Positions 14,650-50,162 of a stretch of DNA of 52,949 nt are shown one piece after another. Position numbers and translations under genes: made by a program. The notes below the pieces were generated by a model. It was not told where the DNA came from. It ran no database searches and worked only from the letters and a program-made list of their open reading frames with translations. Within the stretch, counting starts at the first letter, position 1. The number at the start of each line of letters is the position of its first letter. Source of the DNA: Polyangiaceae bacterium (GTDB lineage Bacteria > Myxococcota_A > Polyangia > Polyangiales > Polyangiaceae); NCBI GenBank assembly GCA_046351395.1, contig JAXLYP010000017.1, forward strand, positions 193,508 to 246,456. The letters are read 5' to 3'.

Positions 14650-14773
14650 TCCGTCCCAGTCGTGACGTTTTGCCCCGATTCGTGGCGTTGGTGCGCGCCA
14701 GTCTGCCCTCGAGACGGGTGCCGCGCAGTCGCCAAGTCCGTCGTCCCCCATCGAAGAGAACCGAGGCCACGAC

Positions 14774-15790: not shown

Positions 15791-15793
15791 GCG

Positions 15794-16690
15794 ATGGGGT
15801 CCTCGAGAGAACGCCGATGGAGCGTCGCCGCGCGATCGATCTTCGTGGTCGTGATCGCCGTTCTCACCCGAGAGGCGCGCGGTCAAGTGCTCGACCTCCC
15901 GGACGCGACGACGAACCCGACCGCGCCACCGCGGGACGTGGATCAGAAGCTCCCCTATTGGGAGAGAGGAGAGATCCGGCCATTCACGTCGGCGGTGTTC
16001 GACGTCGGCGGGTTCTTCGTGCGCCCCGAGTTGAACGTCGGCTACGGGCAGCCGCACTTCAACTGGATCGGCGCGGAGATCTTCAGCAAGCTCACGCTCG
16101 GCGGCGTGACGCTCGGAGCGGGCGTCCACGGTCAGATCCCGAACGTCGACGCGCGCCTCGGCGTGCGGTCGTTCCGGTCGGCGGATCAACGCCTGCTCCA
16201 GCGCAAGAACGTGTATCGGGAGTCGGACCCGACGATCCTCGATCAGCCCGCCTCGGCCTACGACAGCGTCGACGCGGATCTCGCGGTGAACGTCCGCGCG
16301 CTCGGAGGATCCGTCAGCTTGGAGACGCGCGCGCTCGCGCTCTTCCAGGTCCCCGACGGATATGACGTCTTCGAGGACGTGTTCCGCGTCGTGGTCCGAC
16401 CGCCGCTCGTCTGGCAGGCGAAATTGACGTATGTCGTCTTCGCGGGCTGGGACGATCGCCTCGCGCTCGGGTTCACGACGGAGCTCCTCGGCGCTCCAGC
16501 GAGAGACAACCTCGTCTTCCGCGTCGGCCCGGTGCTCACCGTCGCGTTGACGGAGCACCTCCAGGCGATCGGCGGCGGCGCCTTCGCGATCCTGTACCAC
16601 GACGATCTCGGCCTCAGCGGGTCGGATCTCGGGCAGATCGGTCTGCGCTACCGTTGGGCGTCGGGAGAGCCTTACCCCGACTTCCCGTGA
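15794..16690 (+). CDS. Secreted protein, possibly beta-barrel; unknown function
   Basis: Starts 3 nt after the preceding stop. Signal-like SIFVVVIAVLTREARG. Alternating-residue strands (e.g. LALGFTTELLG, LVFRVGPVLTVAL). High GC3. Confidence 0.55.
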   Translation: MGSSRERRWSVAARSIFVVVIAVLTREARGQVLDLPDATTNPTAPPRDVDQKLPYWERGEIRPFTSAVFDVGGFFVRPELNVGYGQPHFNWIGAEIFSKLTLGGVTLGAGVHGQIPNVDARLGVRSFRSADQRLLQRKNVYRESDPTILDQPASAYDSVDADLAVNVRALGGSVSLETRALALFQVPDGYDVFEDVFRVVVRPPLVWQAKLTYVVFAGWDDRLALGFTTELLGAPARDNLVFRVGPVLTVALTEHLQAIGGGAFAILYHDDLGLSGSDLGQIGLRYRWASGEPYPDFP

Positions 16691-16717
16691 CGGGCGGCCC
16701 TCGCCGAGGGCCGCCCG
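16691..16717. terminator. Perfect 12-bp-stem hairpin between convergent genes (putative bidirectional terminator)
   Basis: cgggcggccctc-gcc-gagggccgcccg. It lies between the stop at 16690 (+) and the stop at 16722 (-). No U-tract. Confidence 0.5.
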
Positions 16718-16721
16718 TGCT

Positions 16722-17639
16722 TCAGAACTGCCCGCCCCAGGAGAGCTGCACGGGCGGCCGCGCGGTGACGAGCGGCGCGGACGCCGCCGCGCTCGTGTTC
16801 GGGCCGTCGACGGTCTGCGTGTAGTGCAGGGCGAGGGGGACCGCGAGGCCTACCCCGTACCCGAAGAGGAAGCCGCTGATCGCGTCGCTCATCCAGTGCC
16901 GATCGGAGATGACGCGCATCCCGGCGATGGTGACGGCGAGGGCCGTCGAGCCGACGCACGCGACGACGTCGGGCGCGCCGCCCCCGTAGAGCGGGACATA
17001 GGCGTGGTGGGCGCACGTCAGCCCCGCGCCGACCGCGCTCATCGTCGCGTGACCGCTGAACCAGCTCGCGTTGACGCCGAAGGAGCCACAGTCGTACGCC
17101 CAGCCTTTGTCTGTTTGGCATCCGATCCCGGCTGGGCGCTCCCGCGCGGCGAGCCGGTGGTTCACGCGCATGACGAGATACGCGATCCCGTAGGCCTCGA
17201 GGTTCATCGCCGTCAGCTGCTGGAGCATATCGAGGTTCTCGTCGATCGCCGGGACGAGGACTCCATCGATGAGGACGGGGTAGGCGGCGCTCACGGCGAG
17301 CAAGACGTCGCTCGCGATCTGAATGCCGCGTCGATCCTTAAGCCGCGGCATCGCGACGGCGTCGCGGGCGATCTCGTCGAACAGGATGGGCCCGATCCAC
17401 CGGGGCTCGATGGGCTGTTCGGTCCCGAACTCGATGATGCCCGCGCCGGTGATCGACAGGGCGGTGAGCGTGTACTCGCCCCACACGACGCGCGGGTGGG
17501 ACTCGTCCCAGTGCAGGCGGTGCTCGTCCTTGGCCTGCGCCGCTGCGCGCTCGCATGGCGCGAAAGCTGCGAGCGCCGCGCCCAGAAGGATCGCGTGTTG
17601 GTGTCTGTGCAGCGAGGAGTTCACCAGGGGATCCGTCAC
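16722..17639 (-). CDS. Secreted PAP2-like phosphatase (paralog of 14774-15790)
   Basis: The GTG start overlaps the upstream stop (GTGA). Motifs ARERPA, WFSGHA, RVISDRHWMSD. Ends ...QLSWGGQF*. Confidence 0.75.
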   Translation of the reverse strand: MTDPLVNSSLHRHQHAILLGAALAAFAPCERAAAQAKDEHRLHWDESHPRVVWGEYTLTALSITGAGIIEFGTEQPIEPRWIGPILFDEIARDAVAMPRLKDRRGIQIASDVLLAVSAAYPVLIDGVLVPAIDENLDMLQQLTAMNLEAYGIAYLVMRVNHRLAARERPAGIGCQTDKGWAYDCGSFGVNASWFSGHATMSAVGAGLTCAHHAYVPLYGGGAPDVVACVGSTALAVTIAGMRVISDRHWMSDAISGFLFGYGVGLAVPLALHYTQTVDGPNTSAAASAPLVTARPPVQLSWGGQF

Positions 17640-21719: not shown

Positions 21720-23159
21720 ATGAGCAACGCGCCGCGACGATCGTCGAGTCCACCCGATCCCAAAGAGGTCGCCCGGCGCTCCCTCGTCGAACGAGCGCTC
21801 GGGGTGATCACCGAGGTGAGGGCAGGCGAGGGGGGGACCGCACTCCTCATGACGCTCAATGTCTTTCTGCTGCTCACCGCATACTATCTCATCAAGCCGG
21901 TCCGTGAGGGCCTCATCGGGAGCGTGAAGCACGGCCCCGAGTACAAGAGCTACATGGGGGGCGCGGTCGCGCTCGCGCTCTTCGCCATCGTCCCGCTCTA
22001 CGGGATGCTCGCCGCGAGGCTGAAGCGGAACGTGCTCATCTCGAGCGTCTCGCTCTTCTTCGTCGCGAACCTCGTCGGCTTCTGGATGCTCGGCCGCCTC
22101 CCCTGGGTCGCGACCGAGACGGGGGCGACGGTCTATGCGCTCGCGTTCCTCCTCTGGGTGGGCGTGTTCAACCTCATGATCGTCGCGCAGTTCTGGGCGT
22201 TCGCCGCCGACGTGTACACCGACGAGCAGGGGAAGCGGTTGTTCGCGCTCATCGGTCTGGGCGCGTCCGTCGGCGCGGTGATGGGGAGCCTGGTCATGAA
22301 CCGCGTCGTGACCGAGCTCGGCACGGAGCACATGATGCTCGTCGCCGCCGTGACGCTCGCGCTCGCGACGGCGGTGACGCTGCTCATCCATCGGCGCGAG
22401 TCCCGGCGGCCGCGGGCGCCGGACCCGGAGAAGGAGCGGAAACAGCGCGAGGAGAAGGAGGCGAAGCAGAGCAGTCAGGGCGCGTTCTCGCTCGTGCTCC
22501 ACGACCGGTATTTGCTGCTCATCGCGGCGTTCACCGTGCTCTTCCAGATCGTGAACACCAATGGCGAGTTCATCCTCTCGAGCCTCGTGGCGGACGCGTC
22601 GCGCGCCGTGACCGAGACGCGAGAGGAGCAGAAGGCGTGGATCGCCTCGTACTACGGGAGCTTCTTTCTCTGGGTGAACATCGCGGGCGTGGCGATCCAG
22701 ACGTTCCTCGTCTCGCGGATCGTGAAGTGGGGCGGGCTCAAGGTCGGCCTCCTCATCTTCCCCGTCGTCGCGCTCATCAGCGAGGCGGCCATCGCGGTCG
22801 TCCCGGTGCTCCTCCTCGTTCGGATCGGCAAGACGGCGGAGAACTCGCTCGACTATTCGCTCAACAACACGCTCCGCAACGCCCTCTGGCTCCCCACGAC
22901 GACGCGCGCGAAGTACGTCGCGAAGCAGGCGATCGACAGCTTCGTGTCGCGCGTGGGCGACATGGGGTCGGCGCTCGCGATCTTCATCCTCATCGACGCG
23001 CTCCACTTGACCGTGCGAGCGGTCGCGACGCTCAACGCGTGCCTCGTCCTCGCTTGGATCTACGTGTCGATCGAGATCGTCCGCGAGAACGGCAAGCTCA
23101 CCGAGGACGCGAAGGGCAAAGCGCTTTCACGGCTGGAGGCGGCGGGGGCGAGCGCGTGA
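21720..23159 (+). CDS. TLC-family (ATP/ADP-translocase-like, Npt-type) membrane transporter
   Basis: 479 aa, multi-TM. LLMTLNVFLLLTAYYLIKPVREG; signature block QFWAFAADVYTDEQGKRLFALIGLGASVGAVMGS. An upstream ATG at 21707 in another frame (MSTKDEQRAATIVEST) leaves the true start uncertain. Confidence 0.8.
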   Translation: MSNAPRRSSSPPDPKEVARRSLVERALGVITEVRAGEGGTALLMTLNVFLLLTAYYLIKPVREGLIGSVKHGPEYKSYMGGAVALALFAIVPLYGMLAARLKRNVLISSVSLFFVANLVGFWMLGRLPWVATETGATVYALAFLLWVGVFNLMIVAQFWAFAADVYTDEQGKRLFALIGLGASVGAVMGSLVMNRVVTELGTEHMMLVAAVTLALATAVTLLIHRRESRRPRAPDPEKERKQREEKEAKQSSQGAFSLVLHDRYLLLIAAFTVLFQIVNTNGEFILSSLVADASRAVTETREEQKAWIASYYGSFFLWVNIAGVAIQTFLVSRIVKWGGLKVGLLIFPVVALISEAAIAVVPVLLLVRIGKTAENSLDYSLNNTLRNALWLPTTTRAKYVAKQAIDSFVSRVGDMGSALAIFILIDALHLTVRAVATLNACLVLAWIYVSIEIVRENGKLTEDAKGKALSRLEAAGASA

Positions 23160-26075: not shown

Positions 26076-27797
26076 GTGGCCGACGCGCAGACCGAACGCT
26101 GCGAGGGATGTGGCGCCGAGCTGACCGCGGGCGCCCGCTTCTGCGCGACGTGTGGGCGCCCGGTCGCCGCGCTCGCTCCAACCGAGCTGCACGCCCCGAG
26201 GTTCGACGCGACCCCCGCGATGCGCCTCGCGCCGGGGACGATGCTGGGGAGTTACCGGATCGAGGCGCTCCTCGGCGAAGGCGGGATGGGCGTCGTCTAC
26301 CGCGCGCGCGACGAGGTCATGCACCGCACGGTCGCGCTCAAATGTCTGCACACGAACCTCGCGGGGGACGCGGGGATCCGCCGGCGCTTCGGGCGAGAGG
26401 CGCGCGCGCTCGCGACGGTCGTGCACCCGAACGTCGTGCGCGTGTACGACTTCGTCGATCACGAGCACGTCCCCGCGATCGTCATGGAGCTCGTCGACGG
26501 ACCGAGCCTGTCCGCGCACGTCGCGGCGTGGCGTGAGTCCGTCCCGTTCGAGGAGATCCGCGGCCTCTTCGGGCAGATCCTCGCCGCCGTCGGCCACGGG
26601 CACGACAACGGCATCATCCACCGCGATCTCAAGCCAGACAATGTGCTGCTCGCGCGGGAGGCGCGCGGGCTCCGCCCGAAGGTCGTGGATTTCGGGCTCG
26701 CGAAGATCCTCGAGGGGACGACGTACACCGTCACGGGCGCCCTCCTCGGGACGTGCCGGTACATGGCGCCCGAGCAGGTGCAGGACCCGGAGCGCGCGGA
26801 TCTGCGCGCCGACATCTATTCGCTGGGCGTCACCCTCTATCAGCTCGTGACGGGGAGCGTGCCCTTCGATCGGGCGACCCACTTCGCGGTCATGATGGCG
26901 CACGTCAACGAAGCACCGCGCCCGCCATCCTCGATCCGCGCGGACGTCCCTGCGCTCCTCGAGCGCCTCGTCCTCGACGCGCTCGCGAAGGATCCGAGCG
27001 CGCGCCCTCCCTCGTGCGCCGTGTTCCGCGAGCGGCTCGACGAGGCGCTCGCGGCGTACGAGCCGGAGGACGCACCGCCGGGCTCGCTCCCGCGCGTCGT
27101 GCGAGGGGCGGAGACGGCAGATCTCGTGCTCGTGCCCGAGGGTCCGTTTCTCTTTGGCCCGCACCGGCGCCGCGTCGATTTGGACGCGTTCTACATCGAT
27201 CGGACGCCGGTCACGAACGGCGAGTTCGCCGCGTTCGTGAGGGCCACGCGATATGCGCCGTCGGACGAGGGGAGCGGACGGTTCCTGCATCACTTCCGGG
27301 GTGGGAAGGCGCCCGTCGGCGCGGAGCATCACCCGGTGACGCACGTCTCGTGGACCGACGCGCGGGCGTACGCGACGTGGGCGGGCAAGCGACTCCCGAC
27401 GGAGGCGGAGTGGGAGAAGGCCGCGCGAGGGACGGACGGACGGAGGTACCCATGGGGCCGCGCGGAGCCCACCGCGGATCGCGCGAACTACGGGAAGCTG
27501 AACGGTGGAACGACGCCCGTCACCGCGCACGCCGCGGGAGCGTCACCGTACGGTGTGTTGGATCTTGCGGGCAATGTCTGGGAGTGGTGCGAGGACGTCG
27601 ACGATCCCGCGTTTTACCTCGACGGTCCTACGCGGAACCCGAAGAACGCGCCGCGCGCGGGCGAGCGCGCGCGGCACGTGGTGCGCGGCGGCTCCTGGCT
27701 CTACGGCCCGCGCGCCCTGCGCACGGTGTACCGCGCGAGCTTCGAAGCGCACTATCGCGTCGCGAGCGGCGGATTCCGCTGCGCGCGCTCCGCCTGA
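26076..27797 (+). CDS. Ser/Thr protein kinase with N-terminal zinc-ribbon and C-terminal FGE-sulfatase (SUMF1-like) domain
   Basis: CEGCGAELTAGARFCATCG; kinase motifs GEGGMGVVYRA, VALK, HRDLKPDNVLL, DFGLAK, APE. FGE domain: PVTHVSWTDARAYATWAGKRLPTEAEWEKAARG, GNVWEWCED, VVRGGSW. Confidence 0.85.
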   Translation: MADAQTERCEGCGAELTAGARFCATCGRPVAALAPTELHAPRFDATPAMRLAPGTMLGSYRIEALLGEGGMGVVYRARDEVMHRTVALKCLHTNLAGDAGIRRRFGREARALATVVHPNVVRVYDFVDHEHVPAIVMELVDGPSLSAHVAAWRESVPFEEIRGLFGQILAAVGHGHDNGIIHRDLKPDNVLLAREARGLRPKVVDFGLAKILEGTTYTVTGALLGTCRYMAPEQVQDPERADLRADIYSLGVTLYQLVTGSVPFDRATHFAVMMAHVNEAPRPPSSIRADVPALLERLVLDALAKDPSARPPSCAVFRERLDEALAAYEPEDAPPGSLPRVVRGAETADLVLVPEGPFLFGPHRRRVDLDAFYIDRTPVTNGEFAAFVRATRYAPSDEGSGRFLHHFRGGKAPVGAEHHPVTHVSWTDARAYATWAGKRLPTEAEWEKAARGTDGRRYPWGRAEPTADRANYGKLNGGTTPVTAHAAGASPYGVLDLAGNVWEWCEDVDDPAFYLDGPTRNPKNAPRAGERARHVVRGGSWLYGPRALRTVYRASFEAHYRVASGGFRCARSA

Positions 27798-27863: not shown

Positions 27864-28361
27864 ATGCTCGATCGACCCCAGATCCTCGCCGAGCTCGCGC
27901 GCACCCGGACCCAACCGGTGGACGTGGAGGAGCTCCGCTCGCTCGGGTTTCCTCCGCACTATCTCGCGCTCGTCGCGGAGGTCGGGGTGCAGGAGATCGC
28001 GCCCGACTTCCTGATGCCGACGTCGATGCACGTCGCCGTCGAGAACCTCCGGAACGCGAAGCGACTCGGCTCGTACCTCGTCTTCGGGGTCTCCGCGTCG
28101 GGGGACATGTGGCTGCTCGACAAAGATCCGTCGAGGGATCGCGTCGCGTTCCTCCCGCAAGAAGAGGAGAGCGGGCCGCGGGTCGAGCTCGGCATCGGCC
28201 TCGACCAGTGGTTCGAGCTCGCGCTGTTCATGCGCACGCACGAGGCCGCGAAGGCGCGCGCGAAGAGCGAGAGCGAGAAGCGCGCGCTGAAGGCGCGCGC
28301 CAAGAAGTTCATCGAGACGATGTCGCGGACGCTCGCGGAGGCGTACCCGTACCTCCTCTGA
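27864..28361 (+). CDS. SMI1/KNR4 (SUKH-superfamily) immunity-like protein
   Basis: 165 aa. EELRSLGFPPHYLALVAEVG and YLVFGVSASGDMWLLDKDPSRDRVAFLPQE match the SUKH pattern (recognised by eye). Confidence 0.55.
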   Translation: MLDRPQILAELARTRTQPVDVEELRSLGFPPHYLALVAEVGVQEIAPDFLMPTSMHVAVENLRNAKRLGSYLVFGVSASGDMWLLDKDPSRDRVAFLPQEEESGPRVELGIGLDQWFELALFMRTHEAAKARAKSESEKRALKARAKKFIETMSRTLAEAYPYLL

Positions 28362-28363
28362 AC

Positions 28364-29629
28364 GTGGGCAACGGAACTTCGATCCCCGCTCACGCGGAGC
28401 TCGGCGACTCGCACAACTTCGGGCGCCGCGTCTCGATCTCGGGCGATCGGGTGCGGAAGCCCCGCACGCTGTTCTGGGAGTGGCTGGTCCTCGCGGCAGA
28501 CAGTCCGCTGCGCCTCGCGCTCGATCGCATGGCGCGCGAGGCGCCGGCGTCGTCCGGCCTCGACGCGAACGCGTTCTCGTTCTTGCCTTCGCTGGCGTTC
28601 TCGGGGCACGAGTCGCGCGAGGGAGGCGAGGTCGAGCGCGTCGACCTGGATCCGCTGCCCGCGCTCTCGGACGGCGAGAGGACCCGATTTGCGAGGCTCG
28701 TGGGCCGCTCGATCGCCCTCTTCGCGTGGCTCGGGGTGTCCGACCTGCACTGGGAGAACCTCGTGCTCGGCGTCCGGAGGGACGGTGGAGTGGTGTTCGG
28801 CCCGCTGGACGTCGAGATCATCCTGAGCGACCTCTCGCTCCCGACGGAGACGAAGCTGCTCCCGGACGCGGATCCGGAGTACGCGGCGCTCTGTCGGCAC
28901 GCGTGCGGTGTGCGCCGGGCCCTGCCGTGGCTCGGCAAGCCGATCCGCGCGGGGGATCTCGTCGCGATGGCCTCGGACTATCGCGCCACGCTCGCGCTCC
29001 TCGACCGACAGTCCAACGCGGTCGCGGAGGCGCTCGCGGGCCTACCGGGGCTCGCGGACGCGCCGATCCGCGTTTGTCTGCGCAGCACGGGCGACTACGT
29101 CGAGGCGCGACGCGCCGTGCGCCGAAGCGCGCTCTGGCCTCCCTTGCTGGACGCCGAAGCGGAGCAGCTCGCGCGCGGAGACATTCCCTATTTCTTCCGT
29201 CTGTACGGGCGCCCCGGGATTCACTGGTTCCCCGAGCCGGAGTTGAAAGAGCTCGGGACGCTGCCTTCGAAGGGGGACGTCCCCAAGCTCGATAGGCTGC
29301 TCTCCGTGGCCAAAGGCCTCCGCTCGAGCTCGCGAAAGAGCCTCCGCGAAGAGGGCCTGTTCGCGCTGCTGGGCGCGTTCGATCATCCGTCGATGGGAGG
29401 AAAGTACGAAGATCGCGGCCTCGAGGTCGCGTTCCAGCGGCGCTCCATCGTGCTGACGCTGAAAGGGGGAGAGGAGCTGCGTGCGCACCGCGATTTGGGG
29501 GCGTACGTCGGGAGCGTCTATTTGCCGTGCACCTGCGGGGAGGTCCGCACGGTGTTCGTCCCTCCCGTGACCACCTGCGAAGGCGGGACCGCGGCTCCGC
29601 CACCTGCGAAGGTCAAACCGGGTCGGTGA
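28364..29629 (+). CDS. Stand-alone DUF4135 (LanM N-terminal dehydratase / lipid-kinase-like) domain protein
   Basis: GTG lies 3 nt after the SUKH stop. VRKPRTLFWEW; FARLVGRSIALFAWLGVSDLHWENLVLG (DxHxEN motif); VFGPLDVEIIL (DxE). No LanC-like cyclase domain follows. Confidence 0.6.
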   Translation: MGNGTSIPAHAELGDSHNFGRRVSISGDRVRKPRTLFWEWLVLAADSPLRLALDRMAREAPASSGLDANAFSFLPSLAFSGHESREGGEVERVDLDPLPALSDGERTRFARLVGRSIALFAWLGVSDLHWENLVLGVRRDGGVVFGPLDVEIILSDLSLPTETKLLPDADPEYAALCRHACGVRRALPWLGKPIRAGDLVAMASDYRATLALLDRQSNAVAEALAGLPGLADAPIRVCLRSTGDYVEARRAVRRSALWPPLLDAEAEQLARGDIPYFFRLYGRPGIHWFPEPELKELGTLPSKGDVPKLDRLLSVAKGLRSSSRKSLREEGLFALLGAFDHPSMGGKYEDRGLEVAFQRRSIVLTLKGGEELRAHRDLGAYVGSVYLPCTCGEVRTVFVPPVTTCEGGTAAPPPAKVKPGR

Positions 29630-29636
29630 TCGCGGA

Positions 29637-30266
29637 TCAAGGGCAGCCCCCATCGATCACGAGTCCAGTCCGGCCGAGCGGCTCGGCGTCGGGCGTCCAG
29701 TCGAGCCCGTCCGCGAACGACATCACGCCCTCCACGTCCACCGCGCAGGGGGGAGCTGAAATCGCGAGCTTCCCACCGAGCGAGGTCGCGTTCGCGATCT
29801 CGCCGATGGGTGTAGGCGGACCGATCCCGGTCCACGGCGCGCAGTCGTCCGCGTCGTGGGTGACGCGCGCGAACTTGATGAGATCGAGCGGGTATTGCCC
29901 GAGATCGACGACCTCCATCGAGAGCGCGTCGAGCCCGAGCTGGAAGCAGAGATCCCGCGCGTCGTCGCGCTTGAGGATCGCGACGGCCCCGGCGTTCGTG
30001 AAGAGGTTGATGGCGCTGTAGGCGTCGCAGGGACCCGCGCACGATCCACTCCCCGTGCTGCTCGACGCGCTCGCGCTCCCGGCTCCACTTCCGGTCGCGC
30101 TCGAGCCGACGGTCGTTCCGCCCCCATCATCCTCGAGCGTGGCGACGTCGCGACACGCGCCGAGGAGCACAATCGCGATCACGAGGGTCGCCCGCGGCGC
30201 CGTGCGCTCGCGAAGGAGTGCTCCGAGGGAGGTCCCTTGGGGTGCGGTTTCGCCGCGCGCCCTCAT
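29637..30266 (-). CDS. Lipoprotein, unknown function (translationally coupled to the TssC-like gene)
   Basis: ATG 30266 overlaps the upstream stop (ATGA). Lipobox IVLLGAC. Gly/Ser-rich linker followed by a Cys-containing globular domain. Confidence 0.65.
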   Translation of the reverse strand: MRARGETAPQGTSLGALLRERTAPRATLVIAIVLLGACRDVATLEDDGGGTTVGSSATGSGAGSASASSSTGSGSCAGPCDAYSAINLFTNAGAVAILKRDDARDLCFQLGLDALSMEVVDLGQYPLDLIKFARVTHDADDCAPWTGIGPPTPIGEIANATSLGGKLAISAPPCAVDVEGVMSFADGLDWTPDAEPLGRTGLVIDGGCP

Positions 30267-31615
30267 GGATCGAGCGTCCCTTTCAAGCTGAGCGTGAAGA
30301 ACGCGCCCATGTGCTTGAAGTGCGGGCGCAGCCTCAGATCGAAGGAGCGCCACGCCTCGCCGTCGGTCGAGTCGCGCACGATCACCTGCACCTTCCGCAG
30401 CGGCCTTCGCCCCCGGAGCGCGGGGGGCACGACCTCCCGATCGGCGACGTATTGGCCCGCCCAGTCGTTGAGCTCGCGTTCGTCGTCCACTGCCGTCGTC
30501 GCCCATGATGGCTTTTCGACACGCCGAGGGGGCGCGCCCGGGACGAGCGCCTCTGGGTCGTTGATTTGGAAGGAGCGGTGCACCACCTTCAGGTACTGAC
30601 CAATCCTCGTGGAGATGAACACGTAGGGGAGCTCGGTGCCGAGCCGGTGGTTGAACTCGGCGGCGCGCGCCTCCTCCGAGTTGCCGAAGCGCTTGGGCTT
30701 CATGAGCGACCGCGCCGAGAAGAAGCCCGCGGACGTCGCGTCGACGAAGGAGAGGGGAATGAACCCCTCCTCCGACAGATCGTACTCGGTCCGCTCGCCG
30801 AGGTTCGCGTCGAGCGGCGAGATCGCGCCCTCGGGCGCGCGCGGCAGGTCCTCGATCAGGCCGTCCGCGCGCCCGACGATGTTCGGACACCAGCGGTACT
30901 TCGCGAACGACGACGTGAGGCGCGTCGCGAACGCAACGACCGCGAGCCCCCAAGCGAGATCTTCGGCGCGAGCGGTCTCGTCGTACGTGAAGCCCCCGAG
31001 CGTCTCGGTCGCCTCACGGGCAACGGCGAAGGGAGCGCGGAGGAGGAATCGGCCCACGGTGAGCCCCAGGAGGGATGCGCTCGCCTGGTCTCGCAGTGCA
31101 GCGAACGCGCGGTGATGCGCGGCGAAGTGCGCAAGAAGATCGACCGTGCCGATCGCGCGGCGGTCCTCGATCCCGAAGAAGCCTGGTGAGGCGGCCGCGA
31201 TGAAGGGGGCGAGGGAGCACGTCCCGACCTCCGCGATGCGCTCGAGGAGCGTGATGTCCTCCGGCGTGGGGTCGAACTCGAAGTCGGCGAGGATCGCCCC
31301 GTACGGTCGGTCGGTCGCGCCTCGGGCCGTCACCGCAAAGAACGCGCTCTCGCGCGCGGGCGCGCCGGAGCGCACGAGGTCGACGCGGAGCTCGTCGAGC
31401 GTACACGGGTAGAACGCGATCTCGATGTTCTCGCGGAAGTTCGTCCGCTCGACCAGGAACGCGAGGCTCCGCCACGCCCGCTCGAGGCGCTGGAACTTCG
31501 GGTGATGGAGGATCGCGTCGAGCTGCGCGGCGATCCGACGGTCCAGCGAGTCGATGATCGCGTCCGCGCGCGTGGCGGCGAGATCGACGAGGAGCGCATC
31601 ATCGTGCCGTACCAT
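30263..31615 (-). CDS. tssC: TssC/VipB-like contractile sheath large-subunit homolog (orphan, N-terminally short)
   Basis: 450 aa. QLDAILHHPKFQRLERAWRSLAFLVERTNFRENIEI, APFIAAASPGFFG, FATRLTSSFAKYRWCPNIVG, EEGFIPLSF, LRLRPHFKHMGAFFTLSL. These are collinear with the canonical TssC blocks as I recall them from V. cholerae VipB. Confidence 0.8.
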   Translation of the reverse strand: MVRHDDALLVDLAATRADAIIDSLDRRIAAQLDAILHHPKFQRLERAWRSLAFLVERTNFRENIEIAFYPCTLDELRVDLVRSGAPARESAFFAVTARGATDRPYGAILADFEFDPTPEDITLLERIAEVGTCSLAPFIAAASPGFFGIEDRRAIGTVDLLAHFAAHHRAFAALRDQASASLLGLTVGRFLLRAPFAVAREATETLGGFTYDETARAEDLAWGLAVVAFATRLTSSFAKYRWCPNIVGRADGLIEDLPRAPEGAISPLDANLGERTEYDLSEEGFIPLSFVDATSAGFFSARSLMKPKRFGNSEEARAAEFNHRLGTELPYVFISTRIGQYLKVVHRSFQINDPEALVPGAPPRRVEKPSWATTAVDDERELNDWAGQYVADREVVPPALRGRRPLRKVQVIVRDSTDGEAWRSFDLRLRPHFKHMGAFFTLSLKGTLDP

Positions 31616-31675
31616 CCTGGCATTCGGACCTGCGCGACCTCGCTTGTCAAGGCACGGTGCGCCGATGAAGGCGCC

Positions 31676-32371
31676 GTGATAACGAGCGTCGTGGACGCGA
31701 CCCCGCCCGCCCCGAAACCCGACTCGACGCCTTGCGAGGTGTGCCGGCGTCCTCGCTTCGCGTGCGTGTGCGACCGCGTCGTCGCTTACCCCACCGAGCG
31801 GCGCGTGTTGATCCTGCAGCATCCGCAGGAGCAGGACGCGCTCCTCGGCACCGCGCAGCTCCTCGCGGCGAGCTTGCCGGCGGCGCGCATCGTCATCGGG
31901 TTGAGCTGGCCGAACCTCGGCGCGGCGCTCGGCGAGCCCGAGGTGGACGTGAAGAAGTGGGCGGTGTTGTTCCCCGATCGCGAAGCGGAAGGCGAGGGCG
32001 TCGCCACGCGCCGCGGAGCTCCGGTGGATCCGCGCGCGCTCTCGGGGATCGTCGTGCTCGATGGCACGTGGTCGAAGGCGAAGGCGCTCTGGTGGCGGAA
32101 CCCGTGGCTCACGAAGCTGCACCGCATGACGCTGAAGCCGAAGCAGCCCTCGATCTACGGCAGGCTGCGAGCGGAGCCGAAGCGCGAATACGTCTCCACG
32201 CTCGAGTCCGTGGGCGCCGCGCTCACGCTCTCGGGCGAACCCCCGGAGATCGAAGCGGGCCTCTCGCGCGTCTTTCGGACGCTCGTGCAGCGTGTCCGAG
32301 ACGCGGACGTCGCCCCCGAGGAGCGCAGGCTTTCGAAGAGCACGCGGCCCCCGCGACGACGGCCGGGCTGA
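31676..32371 (+). CDS. DTW-domain protein (tRNA-uridine aminocarboxypropyltransferase family)
   Basis: N-terminal Cys cluster CEVCRRPRFACVCD. DGTWSKAKALWW (DTW motif). Start GTG 31676 (alternative 31691). Confidence 0.75.
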   Translation: MITSVVDATPPAPKPDSTPCEVCRRPRFACVCDRVVAYPTERRVLILQHPQEQDALLGTAQLLAASLPAARIVIGLSWPNLGAALGEPEVDVKKWAVLFPDREAEGEGVATRRGAPVDPRALSGIVVLDGTWSKAKALWWRNPWLTKLHRMTLKPKQPSIYGRLRAEPKREYVSTLESVGAALTLSGEPPEIEAGLSRVFRTLVQRVRDADVAPEERRLSKSTRPPRRRPG

Positions 32372-41797: not shown

Positions 41798-42376
41798 CTA
41801 TTGGAACCGGAGCTCGCGGACGAACGCGTAGGTCTTGGGCGCGAGCCGCAGCTGAAAGCTCTGTCCGCCCTCGTTCGCGCGCGACTCGAGGTCTTTTTTG
41901 TAGCGCACGGTGACGACCACGTTCCCCTCGGCGTCGGTTCCTTCGATCGTGTGCGTCCAGGCGTCGGCGGGCCACGCTCGCTTGTCGGAGACGTACGCTT
42001 CGACGGCGATCGCGACGCGCGCGTCGTCGATGTCGTCGGGCCACGGCATGACGAGTTTGCTCTCGCCGGGCGCGATGGGGCCGACGTGATCGAGGACGGA
42101 TGCGTACTTGGGATCGCCCGGCGCGTACTTCCTTTGCGCGGGCGCGGGCCGGAAGAGATCGAGGACGATCGTCCCGTCCGGGAGCATCCTCGCTTGACCA
42201 ATCGCTTCCATGGGACCTCCGCTCGACGCTGGGGCCGATGGTAGCCGCCCTTCCGCGCTTGGCGCGACGGACGCACCCGCGGGCGCCGACGGGGATCCCG
42301 TGGGTGTCCGAGGATCGGCGGAGGAGCAGGCGAAGAACGTGAGGGCGAGGGCGAGGGCCGAACCCGGGAAACGCAT
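41798..42376 (-). CDS. Lipoprotein, unknown function
   Basis: ATG 42376. Lipobox LTFFACS. 192 aa, non-repetitive. Confidence 0.65.
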   Translation of the reverse strand: MRFPGSALALALTFFACSSADPRTPTGSPSAPAGASVAPSAEGRLPSAPASSGGPMEAIGQARMLPDGTIVLDLFRPAPAQRKYAPGDPKYASVLDHVGPIAPGESKLVMPWPDDIDDARVAIAVEAYVSDKRAWPADAWTHTIEGTDAEGNVVVTVRYKKDLESRANEGGQSFQLRLAPKTYAFVRELRFQ

Positions 42377-42384
42377 GCGCGGTT

Positions 42385-43050
42385 CTACGGGCTCGCGGCC
42401 GCCGCGGTCTGCCCGGCTCCGTCGTTTCCTGTGGGCTCGACGACCGGGCTCGCCCCGGTGTCGCGGGCGCGACCCACGAGCTCGTAGTCGTGCTCGAATT
42501 CGGCGCGGACGGCGCCGCGCTCGTCGACCAACCAGGTCGGGGCGACGTGGCGGGGCACTTTGATGCGCTCGGACGGCACGTGACTCCGGAACGCGACGTC
42601 CCAGAGCGGGCTCGTCACACCGTGGTTGAGGCGGGGCGTCTTGTGGTGGTGCAAGAGGTGATGCCGGCGCGCCCAACGCCCGTACGCCGTGGTCGGGGGC
42701 CGCGTGTGGATCCAGCGGTGGAGGACCTCGTACCCGCCATAGACGAGGGAGAAGCCGGCGGCGAACGAGAGGGCGCGACGCGGTCCCACGAGGGGCGTGA
42801 GGGCGCCGCCGAGGAGAGGGATAGCGACCGCGGCGGCGCGCACTTTGCGCGCGGTGGGCGCGAAATAGGTCGGGGTCGCGTGGTGGGCGAGGTGCTCGGC
42901 GTTGAACTCCGCCGCGAGCCCCGAGGGCGTGAGCTTCTCGAGGAGGTTCGGCTTGAGCGCGCGCTTCGGTCCGTGACCGACGAACCGATGAATCGCGTAT
43001 TCGCTCGCCGACCAGCCGAGCCCGCCGAGCGCCATCCAGAGTATCGACAT
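42385..43050 (-). CDS. Fatty-acid hydroxylase / sterol-desaturase-family membrane protein
   Basis: Histidine boxes HRFVGH, EHLAHH, HRWIH, RHHLLHHH. Start ATG 43050 overlaps the TetR stop (TGATG). Confidence 0.75.
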   Translation of the reverse strand: MSILWMALGGLGWSASEYAIHRFVGHGPKRALKPNLLEKLTPSGLAAEFNAEHLAHHATPTYFAPTARKVRAAAVAIPLLGGALTPLVGPRRALSFAAGFSLVYGGYEVLHRWIHTRPPTTAYGRWARRHHLLHHHKTPRLNHGVTSPLWDVAFRSHVPSERIKVPRHVAPTWLVDERGAVRAEFEHDYELVGRARDTGASPVVEPTGNDGAGQTAAAASP

Positions 43051-43820
43051 CACACACGTCCCTTCTTCTTCTTGATCCCAGGCTTCGATGCGGCGGGCTC
43101 GGTCTCTCCGGGCCGCGCGGTGCGAGTCAGTTGGTGCGCGGCGGAGAGCCGCGCGGGGGTCGCCCCCCAGCTCGTGAGCAGCGCGCCGGACGCGAAGCGA
43201 CCAATGTCTGCGACGCTCGGCGCGCGGCGCGCGACGCGACGCGCTTTGTCCATGCAGTGAGCCCCGTGGAGCGCGGACCAGAACGCGTAGACGCGCGCGT
43301 TCGCGTCCCCGGGGGAGAGCGCCTCGGTCTCTTGAGCGAGCGCGAAGACGGACTCCATGCGCTCGAGGAAGGCCCCGAGGAGCGGAGCGGTCTTCGTCGC
43401 CTCTTCGTCGGAGAGGAGTTGTCGGGGGTCCCCGAGGAGGCGCGCGACGAGGCGCCACTCGTGCGGGTGCGTATCGGGGAGAGAGAGGTAGAGGTCGGCG
43501 AGCGTGAGGAGCGTCGCGAGGCTCGCCGTAGCGGGTGCGACCTTGCCGAGCGTCGCGGTGAGGGTCTCGAGCTCGGATTCGAAGTGCGCGCTGATCTCGC
43601 GCACGGCGCGCCGCTGCAGGGCGGCGATGAGCGCGTCCTTGGAAGGGAAGTAGCGGTAGATGGCCGTCGTCACGAGCCCGAGGGTCTGCGCCACGCGCTG
43701 GAGGGTCAGCCCGTCGAGATCGTCGGACTCGAGGATCTCCATCGCGCGGTCCAGGATCGCCTCCGTGCGGAGCTCCCGCCGGTCGCTCGCCCGCGTCGTG
43801 GCGTCGCCGTTGTGAATCAT
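43050..43820 (-). CDS. TetR/AcrR-family transcriptional regulator
   Basis: HTH LTLQRVAQTLGLVTTAIYRYFPSKDAL. ATG 43820 (alternative GTG 43826). Confidence 0.85.
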   Translation of the reverse strand: MIHNGDATTRASDRRELRTEAILDRAMEILESDDLDGLTLQRVAQTLGLVTTAIYRYFPSKDALIAALQRRAVREISAHFESELETLTATLGKVAPATASLATLLTLADLYLSLPDTHPHEWRLVARLLGDPRQLLSDEEATKTAPLLGAFLERMESVFALAQETEALSPGDANARVYAFWSALHGAHCMDKARRVARRAPSVADIGRFASGALLTSWGATPARLSAAHQLTRTARPGETEPAASKPGIKKKKGRV

Positions 43821-43845
43821 GTTCACAATAGTGAACCACGTTCAC
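43811..43845. promoter_or_regulatory. Two adjacent palindromes (putative TetR operators) overlapping the tetR start
   Basis: TGTGAATCATGTTCACA (43811-43827) and GTGAACCACGTTCAC (43831-43845). Both have GTGAA(C)-N-(G)TTCAC symmetry. Confidence 0.55.
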
Positions 43846-43972
43846 GTTGGTGTCAAGCGGGGAGGGATGAAAGGGTTGGGGAGGGATGAACGAGTTGGGG
43901 CGTACGCTCGTCAGACGCCATGCGAACGTTCCCCGCGTCGCGGGATTCCTCCCAGCACTCGAACGACCCCGG

Positions 43973-44728
43973 ATGACGCGCTTCTCTCGAACTTCAACGT
44001 GGGCGATGTGCGCGCTGATCCTCGCGGGGTGCGGCGGCAGTCCCGCGCGTGTCGCGGGGGACCGCGGTCCGAGCGCGTCGGCGAGCGTGGCGGCGAATCC
44101 ACCCGGGGCCACGAGCGCGCCCGAGCCGGTGGGAGGGGACGGCGAGCGGGTCGTGGCGGGCGAGTCGCCCGGGACTCCCGTGATCGCGCCGCCGCCCCCG
44201 GAGGAGCCGCGCCCCGCGCTGCTCTCGACGTGTGAGGAGCGCCGGAGCATCGTGATCCACAAGGCGGAGCGGACGTTGGAGCTTCGATGCGGGGACGCGC
44301 TCGCGGCGCGGTTCGCGGCGTCGCTCGGGAATGCGCCGGAGGGCGCGAAGCAGCACGAGGGGGACGGGCGAACGCCGGAGGGGGACTACTTCATCAGCAT
44401 GAAGTACCCGAGCCAGTACCATCGGTCGCTCCAGCTCGCGTATCCGAACGTCGCGGACGCGGACGCGGGGCTCGCGAAGGGGACGATCAAAGCGACGGAG
44501 CACGCGAAGATCGTGCAGGCGTACGCCACGTGTCGCGAGCCACCCCAGACGACGGCGCTCGGGAGCTTGATCCAGATCCACGGCGGCGGCGGCGGTCCGG
44601 ACGTGGGCGATTGGACGCTCGGTTGCGTCGCCGTGGACAACGACGAGATCGAGGTGGTGTTCGCGTTTCAAAAGCCGGGGTGCGACGCGCAGAATCGCCC
44701 GAACACGCTCGTCCGAATCCTTCCTTGA
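43973..44728 (+). CDS. L,D-transpeptidase (YkuD-domain) lipoprotein
   Basis: Lipobox LILAGC. HEGDGRTPEGDYFI, IQIHGGGG, WTLGCVAVDNDEI (catalytic His/Cys context). Confidence 0.75.
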   Translation: MTRFSRTSTWAMCALILAGCGGSPARVAGDRGPSASASVAANPPGATSAPEPVGGDGERVVAGESPGTPVIAPPPPEEPRPALLSTCEERRSIVIHKAERTLELRCGDALAARFAASLGNAPEGAKQHEGDGRTPEGDYFISMKYPSQYHRSLQLAYPNVADADAGLAKGTIKATEHAKIVQAYATCREPPQTTALGSLIQIHGGGGGPDVGDWTLGCVAVDNDEIEVVFAFQKPGCDAQNRPNTLVRILP

Positions 44729-44918
44729 GGGGCCGACCGCTCCCACGGGCATCGCGGATTGTCTGTCACGCCGCGGGCGCGCGCTCGCTCGGCGGTCGAC
44801 GCGGCGGTGGGACGCGCGCACGCGGGGTCGTTCTCGAGGTGGGGCGGGCGCCTGACGGGAGGCTCGGGAGGCGGTCGACGCGTGCAGCGGGCTGCGCGGA
44901 ACGCGCTATCGTCGACGT

Positions 44919-48072: not shown

Positions 48073-48426
48073 CGTAGGTGAAGGAGCGCGACTCGGGGGG
48101 GTTGGGTGGGCCCCCACTCGCGCGCTGGCGCGCGCGGTCTCCCCCTTGTCCGTGCTCGGGCGCGCCCGCGGCGGTGACTTTTTCGTGCGGGGCGCTCGTG
48201 CGGCGCGCCCTGCGCGCGGACGGGGGAGACAGGTCCGACTCACCCCACCCGCTGGATCGTGTGGCGACGATCGACAAGACCCGGTCGCGGCTCCGAGGGT
48301 GCCTCCATGTCGCGAGCCCGGGCTTCAATGCGGGGTATCGGGGGACCGCTCTCCTCGCATCTTGGAGGCGGTAGCCGCCCCCTCGCGCCTATCGCGCGCG
48401 GCGACTCACGTCGCGCGGGGTGCGGT

Positions 48427-50106: not shown

Positions 50107-50162
50107 GGGTGTTCTCCGAACGGAGCGGCAGTTGGAGGGCGGAGGAGTGTGCGTGCGCGGAC

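What the first reader, a model, noticed from the sequence alone, without database searches (positions are those of the whole stretch)
29637..31615. Orphan, N-terminally short TssC-like sheath gene translationally coupled to a lipoprotein, with no other T6SS genes nearby
The ORF at 30263-31615 is collinear with the T6SS sheath large subunit TssC/VipB (HHPKFQRLERAWRSL.FLV…, APFIAAASPGFFG, FATRLT.SFAKYRWC, LRLRPHFK…). I find no tssB, hcp, vgrG, baseplate, tssJLM or clpV in the surrounding 20 kb on either side. The upstream neighbour is a divergent DTW gene only 60 nt away. Only about 35 residues precede the HHPxFQ block. Canonical TssC (about 490-500 aa, from memory) has a longer N-terminus that contributes to sheath interlocking and ClpV binding. 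The gene instead ends in an ATGA overlap with a 209-aa lipoprotein gene. This could be a sheath-fold protein recruited to a different, envelope-associated role, or a spare subunit for a T6SS encoded elsewhere.
Basis: partly seen in the sequence, partly recalled or inferred. Interest (0 to 1): 0.7.

Follow-up and report, generated by a model that had tools for sequence, protein, structure and literature searches.

The report
Orphan short T6SS sheath (TssC) paralog
This is a real but divergent stand-alone copy of the type VI secretion sheath protein TssC, from a little-known "short" lineage in Polyangia myxobacteria that lacks the handle used to recycle the sheath; its link to a lipoprotein is peculiar to this one organism.

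Summary
Window 30263-31615 (-) encodes a 450-aa TssC/VipB protein. It passes TIGR03355, carries both Pfam domains, and its AF2 model matches solved T6SS sheaths at TM 0.75-0.81. It lacks about 50 N-terminal residues, the segment that includes the ClpV-binding helix. It overlaps a 209-aa lipoprotein gene by ATGA. No other T6SS gene is detectable in the 53-kb window.

It is not a recent duplicate. It belongs to a separate clade of short TssC paralogs ("TssC-S", my working name) found in Sorangium, Minicystis and Polyangiaceae MAGs. In Sorangium these coexist with a canonical 494-aa TssC, are present in only some strains, and evolve about 8-10 times faster.

In five independent TssC-S loci the translationally coupled partner is a ~245-aa ferritin-like di-iron protein, not a lipoprotein. 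The lipoprotein has only two homologues among 5.8 billion proteins. The TssC-lipoprotein pair recurs only in near-identical contigs, so an envelope role is not supported.

TssC-S keeps the helix that aligns with the TssB-binding helix and the C-terminal handshake strands. My best guess (about 0.4) is an auxiliary, ClpV-blind sheath subunit for a T6SS encoded elsewhere. A T6SS-independent exaptation and slow decay are not excluded.

The parts
30263..31615 (-). tssC-S: 450-aa orphan, N-terminally short TssC/VipB-family sheath protein
   Evidence: Pfam VipB and VipB_2 and TIGR03355 above cutoff. PDB sequence matches to VipB/TssC at 1e-89. AF2 pTM 0.76 and Foldseek TM 0.75-0.81 to 5urx, 5urw and 3j9g. 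Identical to NCBI MFO0616352.1.
31508..31600 (-). Residues 6-36: one long predicted helix. It aligns with the domain-3 helix of canonical TssC (TssC1 S66-M86), which packs against the TssB C-terminal helix. Everything N-terminal of it in canonical TssC (ClpV-binding helix and H1) is absent.
   Evidence: DSSP on the AF2 model. Alignment to 5urw and 3j9g. D25, Q31 and I35 are invariant across short and canonical TssC. Structural role taken from PMC5807055.
30512..30565 (-). Residues 351-368: an 18-aa loop insertion found in the window protein but in none of the 10 other TssC-S proteins aligned with it. It lies between the VipB and VipB_2 domains.
   Evidence: Alignment A1. Low pLDDT at residues 354-372. 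The VipB_2 match starts only at profile position 39.
30284..30331 (-). Residues 429-444 (LRPHFKHMGAFFTLSL): the C-terminal strands that form the inter-subunit handshake in T6SS sheaths, nearly invariant in the short clade
   Evidence: R430, P431, F433, K434, G437, F439 and L442 are invariant in A1, A4 and A6. Role of the TssC C-terminal strands taken from PMC5807055.
30263..30266 (-). ATGA: the tssC-S stop codon overlaps the lipoprotein start codon (translational coupling)
   Evidence: Sequence read directly. The same 4-nt overlap is present in L004 and L005.
29637..30266 (-). 209-aa lineage-restricted lipoprotein: signal peptide, Gly/Ser-rich linker, then a Cys-rich domain of about 130 aa of unknown fold
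   Evidence: No Pfam or NCBIfam family, including TssJ models. Only 2 homologues among 5.8e9 proteins. Conserved Cys pattern. AF2 model unusable at pLDDT 29.
30153..30167 (-). Lipobox L34-L35-G36-A37-C38 of the lipoprotein
   Evidence: Conserved in alignment A2, followed by the invariant stretch RDVAT.
31616..31675 (.). 60-nt divergent spacer between tssC-S and the DTW gene (start at GTG 31676)
   Evidence: No sigma-70-like consensus was found.

Best explanation
SHOWN. The gene encodes an intact, divergent paralogue of the T6SS sheath large subunit TssC. It belongs to an old, patchily distributed and fast-evolving lineage of short TssC proteins in Polyangia, which I call TssC-S as a working name. 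These proteins are encoded away from T6SS clusters. They lack the first ~50 residues of canonical TssC, which carry the ClpV-recognition helix and helix H1 of the outer domain 3. They keep the helix that aligns with the TssB-binding helix, domains 1 and 2, and the C-terminal handshake strands.

INFERRED. The protein still needs a TssB to fold, and it still polymerises through the handshake. It would then act as an auxiliary or variant sheath subunit that pairs with TssB and co-assembles with a T6SS encoded elsewhere in the genome. Protomers containing it would present no handle for ClpV, much as pyocin and phage sheaths lack domain 3 and are not recycled.

The ATGA-coupled lipoprotein is a lineage-specific replacement of the clade's usual coupled partner, a ~245-aa ferritin-like di-iron protein. 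It is co-expressed with the TssC-like gene here, but it is not a conserved functional partner.
For: Identity and fold.

A clade separate from canonical TssC:
- In Sorangium So ce291, So ce1335 and So ce1000 a 435-436-aa short form coexists with a 494-aa canonical TssC in the same genome, at about 51% identity.
- In 193 of 200 NJ bootstrap replicates, the smallest clade holding the window protein and the Sorangium short form contains only short-type proteins. It never contains canonical Polyangiaceae TssC. The window's sister group is always short-type.

Retention of assembly elements:
- The C-terminal handshake strands are nearly invariant.
- The helix that aligns with the TssB-binding helix is conserved.
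- 36 of 43 universally conserved TssC columns are kept.
- Roles of these elements come from PMC5807055, PMC3840085 and PMC5048182.

A short linker before this helix is compatible with a working T6SS: natural TssB-TssC fusions have only about 30 residues between the TssB domain and this helix (canonical TssC has about 65 residues before it), and one such fusion sits in an operon with hcp and tssE.

Selection: dN/dS is 0.27-0.36 among Sorangium orthologues.

Link to T6SS islands: in two Sorangium genomes the module lies beside VgrG, PAAR-like or Rhs islands.

The lipoprotein pairing is not conserved, while the ferritin-like partner is.
Against: - No tssB or other T6SS gene could be shown for this MAG. 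The rest of the genome was not retrievable. No canonical TssC with a neighbouring accession number turned up.
- TssC-S evolves about 8-10 times faster than canonical TssC in the same Sorangium strain pairs: 75-79% identity against 97-98%. That is unexpected for a subunit that must fit a conserved lattice.
- It is present in only about 7 of the more than 40 Sorangium strains listed.
- Most TssC-S loci have no T6SS gene within 10 kb.
- A conserved ferritin-like partner has no known place in sheath biology.
- Some relatives are fused to unrelated domains: P0139 carries a ~370-aa C-terminal extension that looks like WD40 repeats by eye, and P0144 and the Minicystis copy carry long N-terminal extensions.
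- Strict monophyly of all 16-18 short-type proteins has only 14-30% bootstrap support.
Confidence: 0.4

Rival explanations
1. Exaptation. TssC-S proteins are sheath-fold proteins that no longer work in a T6SS. They act with their translationally coupled partner, usually a ferritin-like di-iron protein and in this genome a lipoprotein. A possible role is a cytoplasmic scaffold or filament, or a redox- or iron-related module.
For: - The two-gene module (TssC-S plus a ~245-aa ferritin-like protein with two ExxH motifs, 4-nt overlap) is conserved in five divergent lineages and usually sits away from any T6SS gene.
- The partner gives coherent weak matches to Rubrerythrin, EncB, Dps-like proteins, bacterioferritin and designed di-iron proteins.
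- Evolution is about 8-10 times faster than in canonical TssC, and distribution is patchy.
- Relatives carry fusions to other domains.
- A sister-group short TssC (P0257) is also orphan and lies next to a thioredoxin-domain gene.
- The ClpV handle has been lost.
Against: - The most conserved segments are exactly the sheath-assembly elements. The C-terminal donor strands have no obvious role in a non-polymerising protein.
- In solved sheaths TssC shares a beta-sheet with TssB (PMC5807055), so folding without TssB is doubtful.
- The window copy lacks the ferritin-like partner entirely.
- Every Sorangium strain in which I saw TssC-S and could check (So ce291, 302, 726, 1000, 1335) also lists a canonical TssC.
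Confidence: 0.3
2. Decaying relic. The window copy is an old duplicate under relaxed selection. It has lost its partner and is drifting towards pseudogenisation. The long ORF survives largely because stop codons are rare at 70% GC.
For: - The window copy has lost the clade's usual partner.
- It carries an 18-aa insertion seen in none of the 10 other TssC-S proteins aligned.
- Its Pfam scores are much lower than those of the TssB-TssC fusion relatives scanned: VipB 216 bits against 267-383 bits.
- It keeps 84% of universally conserved columns, below the 5th percentile (86%) of other TssC proteins.
- In So ce291 the partner gene is already disrupted.
- TssC-S is absent from most Sorangium strains.
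- Very long spurious ORFs are common in this window.
Against: - The protein is collinear with TssC over its full length, with no frameshift or stop.
- Codon-position GC content is gene-like: GC3 0.89, GC2 0.49.
- It folds confidently as a TssC.
- The precise ATGA coupling is maintained in a second sample.
- dN/dS is 0.27-0.36 in Sorangium orthologues. Window against L004 shows 3 synonymous and 2 non-synonymous differences, too few to be decisive.
- Intact members persist across more than a dozen 50%-identity clusters.
Confidence: 0.15
3. The sheath-fold protein works together with the coupled lipoprotein at the cell envelope, for example as a TssJ-like anchor pair.
For: The ATGA translational coupling and the conserved lipobox. 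The pair is retained in two other metagenomic contigs.
Against: - Those two contigs are about 99% identical to the window and so are not independent.
- The lipoprotein family has only one further member, probably a paralogue in the same MAG.
- It matches no TssJ Pfam or NCBIfam model.
- TssC-S has no signal peptide. A cytoplasmic protein and a lipoprotein exported across the inner membrane would sit in different compartments.
- The relatives examined pair with a ferritin-like protein that has no evident signal peptide or hydrophobic segment, stand alone (L007), or carry an N-terminal extension (L010).
Confidence: 0.07

Closest known systems
Canonical T6SS sheath large subunit TssC / VipB / ImpC (TIGR03355; Pfam PF05943 + PF18945), e.g. 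M. xanthus TssC (5urw/5urx) and V. cholerae VipB (3j9g)
   Same: Same two-domain architecture and fold: 38-39% identity and TM 0.75-0.81. The conserved motifs are kept (PRFLLR, YRWCPNI, RPHFKxMGAFFTL), as are the C-terminal handshake strands and the helix that aligns with the TssB-binding helix.
   Different: - Lacks about 50 N-terminal residues (ClpV-binding helix and H1).
- Not next to tssB or any T6SS gene.
- Carries an 18-aa loop insertion.
- Sits in a separate, fast-evolving clade.
- Translationally coupled to a non-T6SS gene.
Auxiliary or orphan T6SS modules (hcp / vgrG / PAAR islands encoded away from the main cluster)
   Same: A T6SS structural-family gene encoded away from the core cluster. 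In two Sorangium genomes the short tssC lies beside VgrG, PAAR-like or Rhs islands.
   Different: The orphan islands described in the paper I found comprise hcp, vgrG and/or PAAR, not sheath genes (abstract of PMC13098142, seen). I found no paper describing orphan tssC paralogues. Most TssC-S loci have no VgrG within 10 kb.
R-type pyocin and phage tail sheath proteins, which lack the T6SS-specific domain 3 and are not recycled
   Same: A reduced outer layer and no ClpV handle. By analogy the assembly would be non-recyclable (PMC5807055).
   Different: TssC-S is unmistakably a T6SS-type TssC by sequence. It still has the domain-3 helix that pairs with TssB. No tube, baseplate or other tail genes lie nearby.
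Natural TssB-TssC (VipA-VipB) fusion proteins, found among the database relatives closest to the short-clade profile
   Same: Only about 30 residues lie between the TssB domain and the helix that aligns with TssC1 S66-M86, against about 65 residues before that helix in canonical TssC.
   Different: The fusions carry their own TssB domain, and the one checked sits in a T6SS operon with hcp and tssE. The window protein has no TssB domain and no T6SS context.

Membership tests
TssC / VipB (T6SS sheath large subunit) | Sequence match above the curated cutoff of the equivalog model TIGR03355, and both Pfam domains in order | tested here: met
   TIGR03355 302.5 bits against cutoff 271.5. VipB 9e-64 and VipB_2 3.5e-19. 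The margin is modest and the match starts at profile position 46.
TssC / VipB (T6SS sheath large subunit) | TssC fold (domains 1 and 2 plus the domain-3 helix) | tested here: met
   AF2 pTM 0.76. Foldseek E 6e-34 and TM 0.75-0.81 to 5urx, 5urw and 3j9g. Phage and CIS sheaths score far weaker.
TssC / VipB (T6SS sheath large subunit) | C-terminal strands that form the inter-subunit handshake | tested here: met
   LRPHFKHMGAFFTLSL is present and nearly invariant across short and canonical TssC. Conservation of sequence only; function was not tested.
TssC / VipB (T6SS sheath large subunit) | N-terminal ~60-residue segment with the ClpV-binding helix (typical of ClpV-recycled T6SS-i sheaths) | tested here: not met
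   Residue 16 aligns with residue 66 of 5urw. An HMM of the canonical Polyangiaceae N-terminus gives no score above shuffled controls on the short N-termini.
TssC / VipB (T6SS sheath large subunit) | Encoded next to tssB within a T6SS gene cluster | tested here: not met
   No T6SS family among the ~40 ORFs of the 53-kb window. No TssB or VgrG HMM hit. By contrast, the large majority of the canonical loci fetched have tssB immediately upstream.
TssC / VipB (T6SS sheath large subunit) | Forms a contractile sheath with TssB around an Hcp tube | not testable with these tools
   Needs the rest of the genome, complex modelling, or experiment.
Short orphan TssC clade (TssC-S; operational group defined here) | Phylogenetic placement with the short Sorangium/Polyangia paralogues and apart from canonical Polyangiaceae TssC | tested here: met
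   NJ tree. The clade joining the window protein to the Sorangium short form is exclusive in 193 of 200 bootstraps and never includes canonical TssC. Strict monophyly of all peripheral members is weak, at 14-30%.
Short orphan TssC clade (TssC-S; operational group defined here) | Short N-terminus with an acidic, Leu-rich motif (DDxLLxxLxxxR) directly before the domain-3 helix | tested here: met
   The window has HDDALLVDLAATR. The motif is present in most members that have a complete N-terminus.
Short orphan TssC clade (TssC-S; operational group defined here) | 4-nt overlap with a downstream ~245-aa ferritin-like (2x ExxH) protein gene | tested here: not met
   tblastn with three partner sequences finds nothing in the window (best E 0.24). 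A lipoprotein gene occupies that position. L007 also lacks the partner.
TssJ (T6SS outer-membrane lipoprotein) | Sequence match to TssJ models (Pfam T6SS-SciN, NCBIfam TssJ) | tested here: not met
   The lipoprotein matches no Pfam family at E<=0.1. Its only NCBIfam hit is an irrelevant one at E 0.08.
TssJ (T6SS outer-membrane lipoprotein) | Transthyretin-like beta-sandwich fold | tested here: inconclusive
   The AF2 model built from the 3-sequence alignment has pLDDT 29 and pTM 0.18, so no fold comparison was possible.
TssJ (T6SS outer-membrane lipoprotein) | Encoded with tssL and tssM | tested here: not met
   No such genes in the window.

The most novel reading that the evidence does not exclude
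Short orphan TssC proteins of Polyangia are a distinct, T6SS-independent use of the contractile-sheath fold. In this reading a sheath-derived protein works with a translationally coupled di-iron ferritin-like partner, or in this genome with a swapped-in lipoprotein. It might form a cytoplasmic polymer or scaffold tied to iron or redox biology and would no longer serve as part of a secretion machine.
Probability: 0.25. Interest if true: 0.75.

Novelty: new variant of a known kind. Interest (0 to 1): 0.45.

Why it matters
T6SS sheath genes are regarded as strictly clustered core components, always paired with tssB. The auxiliary islands described in the paper I found comprise hcp, vgrG and PAAR.

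This work points to a recurrent lineage of stand-alone tssC paralogues. They have lost the ClpV recycling handle, keep the polymerisation elements, evolve fast, and are usually coupled to a ferritin-like protein.

Two outcomes are possible:
- They feed into T6SS sheaths. That would be a natural way of making sheath protomers that ClpV cannot disassemble, and so a possible means of tuning sheath stability or turnover.
- They do not. That would be an example of the contractile-sheath fold being re-used outside an injection machine.

Either outcome can be tested in culturable Sorangium strains. For the window itself, the practical message is that the automatic annotation "type VI secretion system contractile sheath large subunit" should not be taken as evidence of a T6SS at this locus.

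Tried and rejected
1. Retained ClpV helix. I asked whether the short N-terminus (DDDLLxxLIPxR) is the ClpV-binding helix left behind by an internal deletion. An HMM of the canonical Polyangiaceae N-terminus, run with --max on the short N-terminal peptides, scored -2.2 to -0.5 bits. Shuffled controls reached 6.2 bits. There is no support for the idea, though the peptides are too short to exclude it.
2. Recent duplicate of the resident canonical TssC. Rejected: about 49% identity, and the two never group together in 200 bootstraps.
3. Lipoprotein as TssJ. No sequence match, and the AF2 model was unusable.
4. Conservation of the lipoprotein pairing. Only two homologues exist. A scan of GTDB species representatives found none. 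The context of P0122 could not be retrieved.
5. Remnant of the ferritin-like partner in the window. tblastn was negative.
6. Rest of the source contig or MAG. P0001 is not in the contig index. Accession numbers only suggest that the canonical TssC hits from the same study belong to other MAGs.
7. Anti-phage defence. PADLOC found nothing for TssC-S, the lipoprotein, the ferritin-like partner or the neighbouring genes.
8. Promoter and terminator scan of 29300-32000. No promoter consensus, and terminator-like hits at the chance level.
9. Targeted GTDB scan with a short-clade N-terminal alignment. It mostly returned canonical tssB-tssC loci, because the chosen patterns are shared. It yielded only three further short-type loci: L007, L008 and L010.
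10. Third large protein search, with the short-clade profile. It added almost no new short members.
Full report
**1. What is in the sequence**

The window is 70% GC. The protein at 30263-31615 (-) is identical to NCBI MFO0616352.1, annotated [quoted passage not shown], from a 246-kb contig.

The mechanical ORF is 817 codons long. The coding signal (GC3 0.89, GC2 0.49) and the homology both begin at ATG 31615, which gives 450 aa.
- Pfam finds VipB (9e-64, residues 18-304) and VipB_2 (3.5e-19, residues 375-447).
- The NCBIfam equivalog TIGR03355 scores 302.5 bits against a cutoff of 271.5, and the match starts at profile position 46.
- Against solved structures, residue 16 aligns with residue 66 of M. 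xanthus TssC. Residue 17 aligns with the fifth residue of the VipB chain in 3j9g, which begins at residue 61.
- An AF2 model (pLDDT 71.6, pTM 0.76) matches M. xanthus and V. cholerae sheath subunits at TM 0.75-0.81.

The stop codon overlaps the ATG of a 209-aa ORF by ATGA. That ORF has a signal peptide ending in a conserved lipobox (LLGAC38), a Gly/Ser linker and a Cys-rich domain.

A DTW-domain gene diverges from the tssC-like gene. With a GTG start at 31676 the spacer between them is 60 nt.

About 40 ORFs across the entire 52.9 kb were scanned with Pfam, and the unassigned ones with NCBIfam. No other T6SS component appeared. TssB and VgrG HMMs that I built here also found nothing in a six-frame translation.

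**2. What the missing N-terminus is**

According to PMC5048182, ClpV is recruited to contracted sheaths through an N-terminal TssC helix (residues about 15-35). The first ordered VipB residue in the contracted sheath is residue 61.

According to PMC5807055, the inter-subunit handshake is built from TssC strands beta11 and beta12, the C-terminal strand of a neighbouring TssC, and the N-terminal strand of TssB. The TssC N-terminus belongs to the outer domain 3. There helix 66-86 packs with the TssB C-terminal helix, and helix H1 (39-54) contacts an adjacent protomer. Pyocin sheaths lack domain 3 and are not recycled.

The window protein starts about 10 residues before the equivalent of helix 66-86, and the model shows one long helix over residues 6-36. 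It therefore lacks the ClpV handle and H1. It keeps the helix that aligns with the TssB-binding helix, domains 1 and 2, and the C-terminal strands.

**3. It belongs to a distinct clade of short paralogues**

The database search returned two classes of relatives:
- canonical TssC of 492-494 aa, at 44-47% identity;
- a short class of 431-444 aa, at 46-49% identity and 99% coverage.

Sorangium So ce291, So ce1335 and So ce1000 each have one of each class in the same genome. The two forms are about 51% identical within So ce291.

A profile search of 1.84 billion cluster representatives, followed by an NJ tree, places the window protein among short-type proteins: P0125, P0134, P0141, P0142, P0128, P0123, P0003, P0018, the Sorangium group, P0025 and P0094. 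They are separate from canonical Polyangiaceae TssC.
- In 193 of 200 bootstraps, the smallest clade containing the window protein and the Sorangium short form holds only short-type proteins.
- Canonical Polyangiaceae TssC is never inside that clade.
- The window's sister group is always short-type.
- Strict monophyly of all 16-18 members is weakly supported (14-30%), because a few peripheral sequences move about.

Members share an N-terminal motif, DDxLLxxLIPxR, and the window has HDDALLVDLAATR. This supports the start codon and the coherence of the group.

The clade is accessory and fast-evolving.
- Short forms appear in about 7 of the more than 40 Sorangium strains whose canonical TssC is listed.
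- Between the same strain pairs, short forms are 75-79% identical while canonical TssC is 97-98% identical.
- dN/dS is 0.27-0.36.

The window protein keeps 36 of the 43 columns that are at least 85% conserved in other TssC proteins. That is 84%, against a mean of 93% and a 5th percentile of 86% for the others. It also has an 18-aa insertion (residues 351-368) that none of the 10 other TssC-S proteins aligned with it carries.

**4. Genomic context of the clade**

The short tssC is followed, with a 4-nt overlap, by a gene for a 240-247-aa protein in these loci:
- Sorangium So ce861, So ce1335 and So ce726 (L002, L003, L008);
- an unrelated assembly (L006);
- two JGI metagenome lineages (the P0125 contig, and L088/L089).

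The partners are homologous, at 46-96% identity. They carry invariant E...ExxH...E...ExxH motifs. They give weak but coherent matches to Rubrerythrin, DUF455, EncB, Dps-like proteins, bacterioferritin and designed di-iron proteins. I conclude that the partner is a ferritin-like di-iron four-helix-bundle protein.

In So ce291 this partner gene is disrupted. It is absent from the window and from a Polyangiaceae MAG in which the short tssC stands alone (L007). In Minicystis rosea the ORF carries an N-terminal extension of about 260 aa.

VgrG, PAAR-like or Rhs islands lie within 10 kb in only two Sorangium genomes. None of the short-type loci has tssB upstream. The large majority of the canonical loci fetched in the same scan do.

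**5. The lipoprotein**

It has two homologues among 5.8 billion proteins.
- One is 98% identical and lies on two short Logan contigs that also carry the tssC-like gene with the same overlap. They differ from the window by 5 nt in 1206 (the tssC-like gene) and by 8 nt in 630 (the lipoprotein gene), so they come from the same population.
- The other is 58% identical (MFO0614671.1, locus tag U0414_18945). Its accession number is only 1,681 away from that of the window's TssC. It is therefore most likely a paralogue elsewhere in the same MAG. No TssC closer than 49% identity exists that could sit beside it.

No relative was found in GTDB species representatives. The protein matches no TssJ or other family model. 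Its AF2 model is unusable at pLDDT 29.

The clade's usual partner has been replaced here.

**6. Interpretation**

These points are shown:
- the identity and fold of the protein;
- the loss of the N-terminal segment;
- the orphan status within 53 kb;
- membership of a separate short-paralogue clade;
- the non-conservation of the lipoprotein pairing;
- the conserved ferritin-like partner elsewhere in the clade.

The function is inferred. The segments under the strongest constraint in the clade are the sheath-assembly elements: the C-terminal handshake strands RPHFKxMGAFFTL, the motifs PRFLLR and YRWCPNI, and the helix that aligns with the TssB-binding helix. In solved sheaths TssC shares a beta-sheet with TssB (PMC5807055).

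I therefore favour, at about 0.4, an auxiliary sheath subunit that uses a TssB and a T6SS encoded elsewhere and cannot be grabbed by ClpV. One supporting point: natural TssB-TssC fusions have only about 30 residues between the TssB domain and this helix, and one of them sits in an operon with hcp and tssE.

Several findings weigh against this and favour a T6SS-independent exaptation (about 0.3):
- the roughly ten-fold rate acceleration;
- the patchy distribution;
- the conserved ferritin-like partner;
- fusions of relatives to unrelated domains;
- orphan short TssC genes in a sister group.

Slow decay of this particular copy (about 0.15) is compatible with the loss of the partner, the insertion and the eroded conservation. 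It is opposed by the full-length collinearity, the gene-like codon statistics and the maintained ATGA coupling. The envelope model is unlikely (about 0.07). A recent duplication is refuted.

**7. Novelty**

Full-text searches found no description of orphan short tssC paralogues or of a TssC-ferritin-like module. The orphan islands in the one relevant paper I found concern hcp, vgrG and PAAR.

I rate this a new variant of a known kind. The protein is a TssC by sequence and fold, but it fails two contextual or structural features typical of canonical TssC. Interest is moderate. The clade-level pattern is worth a specialist's attention and can be tested in culturable Sorangium. The window's own copy is a derived, partner-less member whose function remains inferential.

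Noticed in passing
L002:11329-12072, L003:11308-12051, L006:5874-6605, L008:11281-12003, L088:10312-11034 (not in the window): A conserved ~245-aa ferritin-like di-iron protein (two ExxH motifs; weak matches to Rubrerythrin, EncB, Dps-like proteins and bacterioferritin) is translationally coupled by a 4-nt overlap to short orphan tssC genes in several Polyangia lineages. It is disrupted in L001 (So ce291). I found no literature on this two-gene module.
   Followed up: partly
Proteins P0127, P0129, P0131, P0132, P0133, P0137, P0145, P0147; L090:58-1875: Natural single-chain TssB-TssC (VipA+VipB) fusion proteins of 550-711 aa are common among the database representatives closest to the short-clade profile. 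One of them (P0129) sits in an operon with hcp and tssE. I did not check whether they are frameshift or assembly artefacts.
   Followed up: partly
L067:9827-11299 (Sorangium cellulosum So ce56); similar loci L055, L063, L064, L068, L082, L086: Sorangium genomes carry a third tssC paralogue of 490 aa. It is full-length, with a ClpV-type helix (SLLAELLAET), and 73% identical to the canonical TssC of the same genome. It has no tssB within 10 kb and no T6SS neighbours. Orphan tssC copies therefore appear to be a recurrent feature of this group.
   Followed up: partly
Proteins P0139 (784 aa), P0144 (830 aa); L010:9215-11308 (Minicystis rosea, 697 aa ORF): Short-type TssC-like proteins fused to other regions. 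P0139 has a ~370-aa C-terminal extension that looks like WD40 repeats by eye. P0144 and the Minicystis ORF have N-terminal extensions of about 400 and 260 aa. None was checked with domain models or for gene-calling artefacts.
   Followed up: no
L091:437-3516 (GCA_046128665.1): A 428-aa short TssC from a sister group (P0257) is also orphan. It lies 33 nt downstream of a 586-aa thioredoxin-domain (DsbH-like) gene. Together with the ferritin-like partner, the thioredoxin gene in L001, and the globin and flavin-reductase genes near P0125, this hints at a redox or iron theme around orphan short TssC genes. It could be coincidence.
   Followed up: no
window 26220-27797 (+): A Ser/Thr protein kinase fused to an FGE-sulfatase (formylglycine-generating-enzyme-like) domain (Pfam 2.4e-48 and 1.2e-54).
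   Followed up: no
window 27864-29629 (+): Two genes separated by 2 nt, convergent on the lipoprotein gene. The first encodes a 165-aa protein with no family; by eye it resembles SUKH/SMI1-type immunity proteins, with no HMM support. The second encodes a 421-aa protein that matches only the last ~27 positions of DUF4135, the LanM dehydratase region (Pfam 3.4e-8; TIGR03897 at 4e-4). Its stop codon lies 7 nt from that of the lipoprotein gene.
   Followed up: no
window 7693-10515 (-) and 21804-23159 (+): Two proteins related to TLC-type ATP/ADP transporters or MFS. One is a 940-aa protein with HEAT repeats. Three PAP2-family phosphatase genes lie at 13789-17639.
   Followed up: no
window ~42000-52000: GC skew is strongly positive from about 42 to 48 kb (up to +0.21), then turns negative from 48 kb (down to -0.18). 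This coincides with a switch of coding strand. GC content drops to 0.63 at 51-52 kb.
   Followed up: no
window 31571-31603 (-), residues 5-15 of the TssC-like protein: The acidic, Leu-rich N-terminal motif (DDxLLxxLxxxR) is conserved in most short TssC proteins. It loosely resembles published ClpV-binding helices (for example EAEC TssC2, ATDDCLEEIINNTRA), but it has no statistical similarity to the canonical Polyangiaceae N-terminus. Its role is unexplained.
   Followed up: partly
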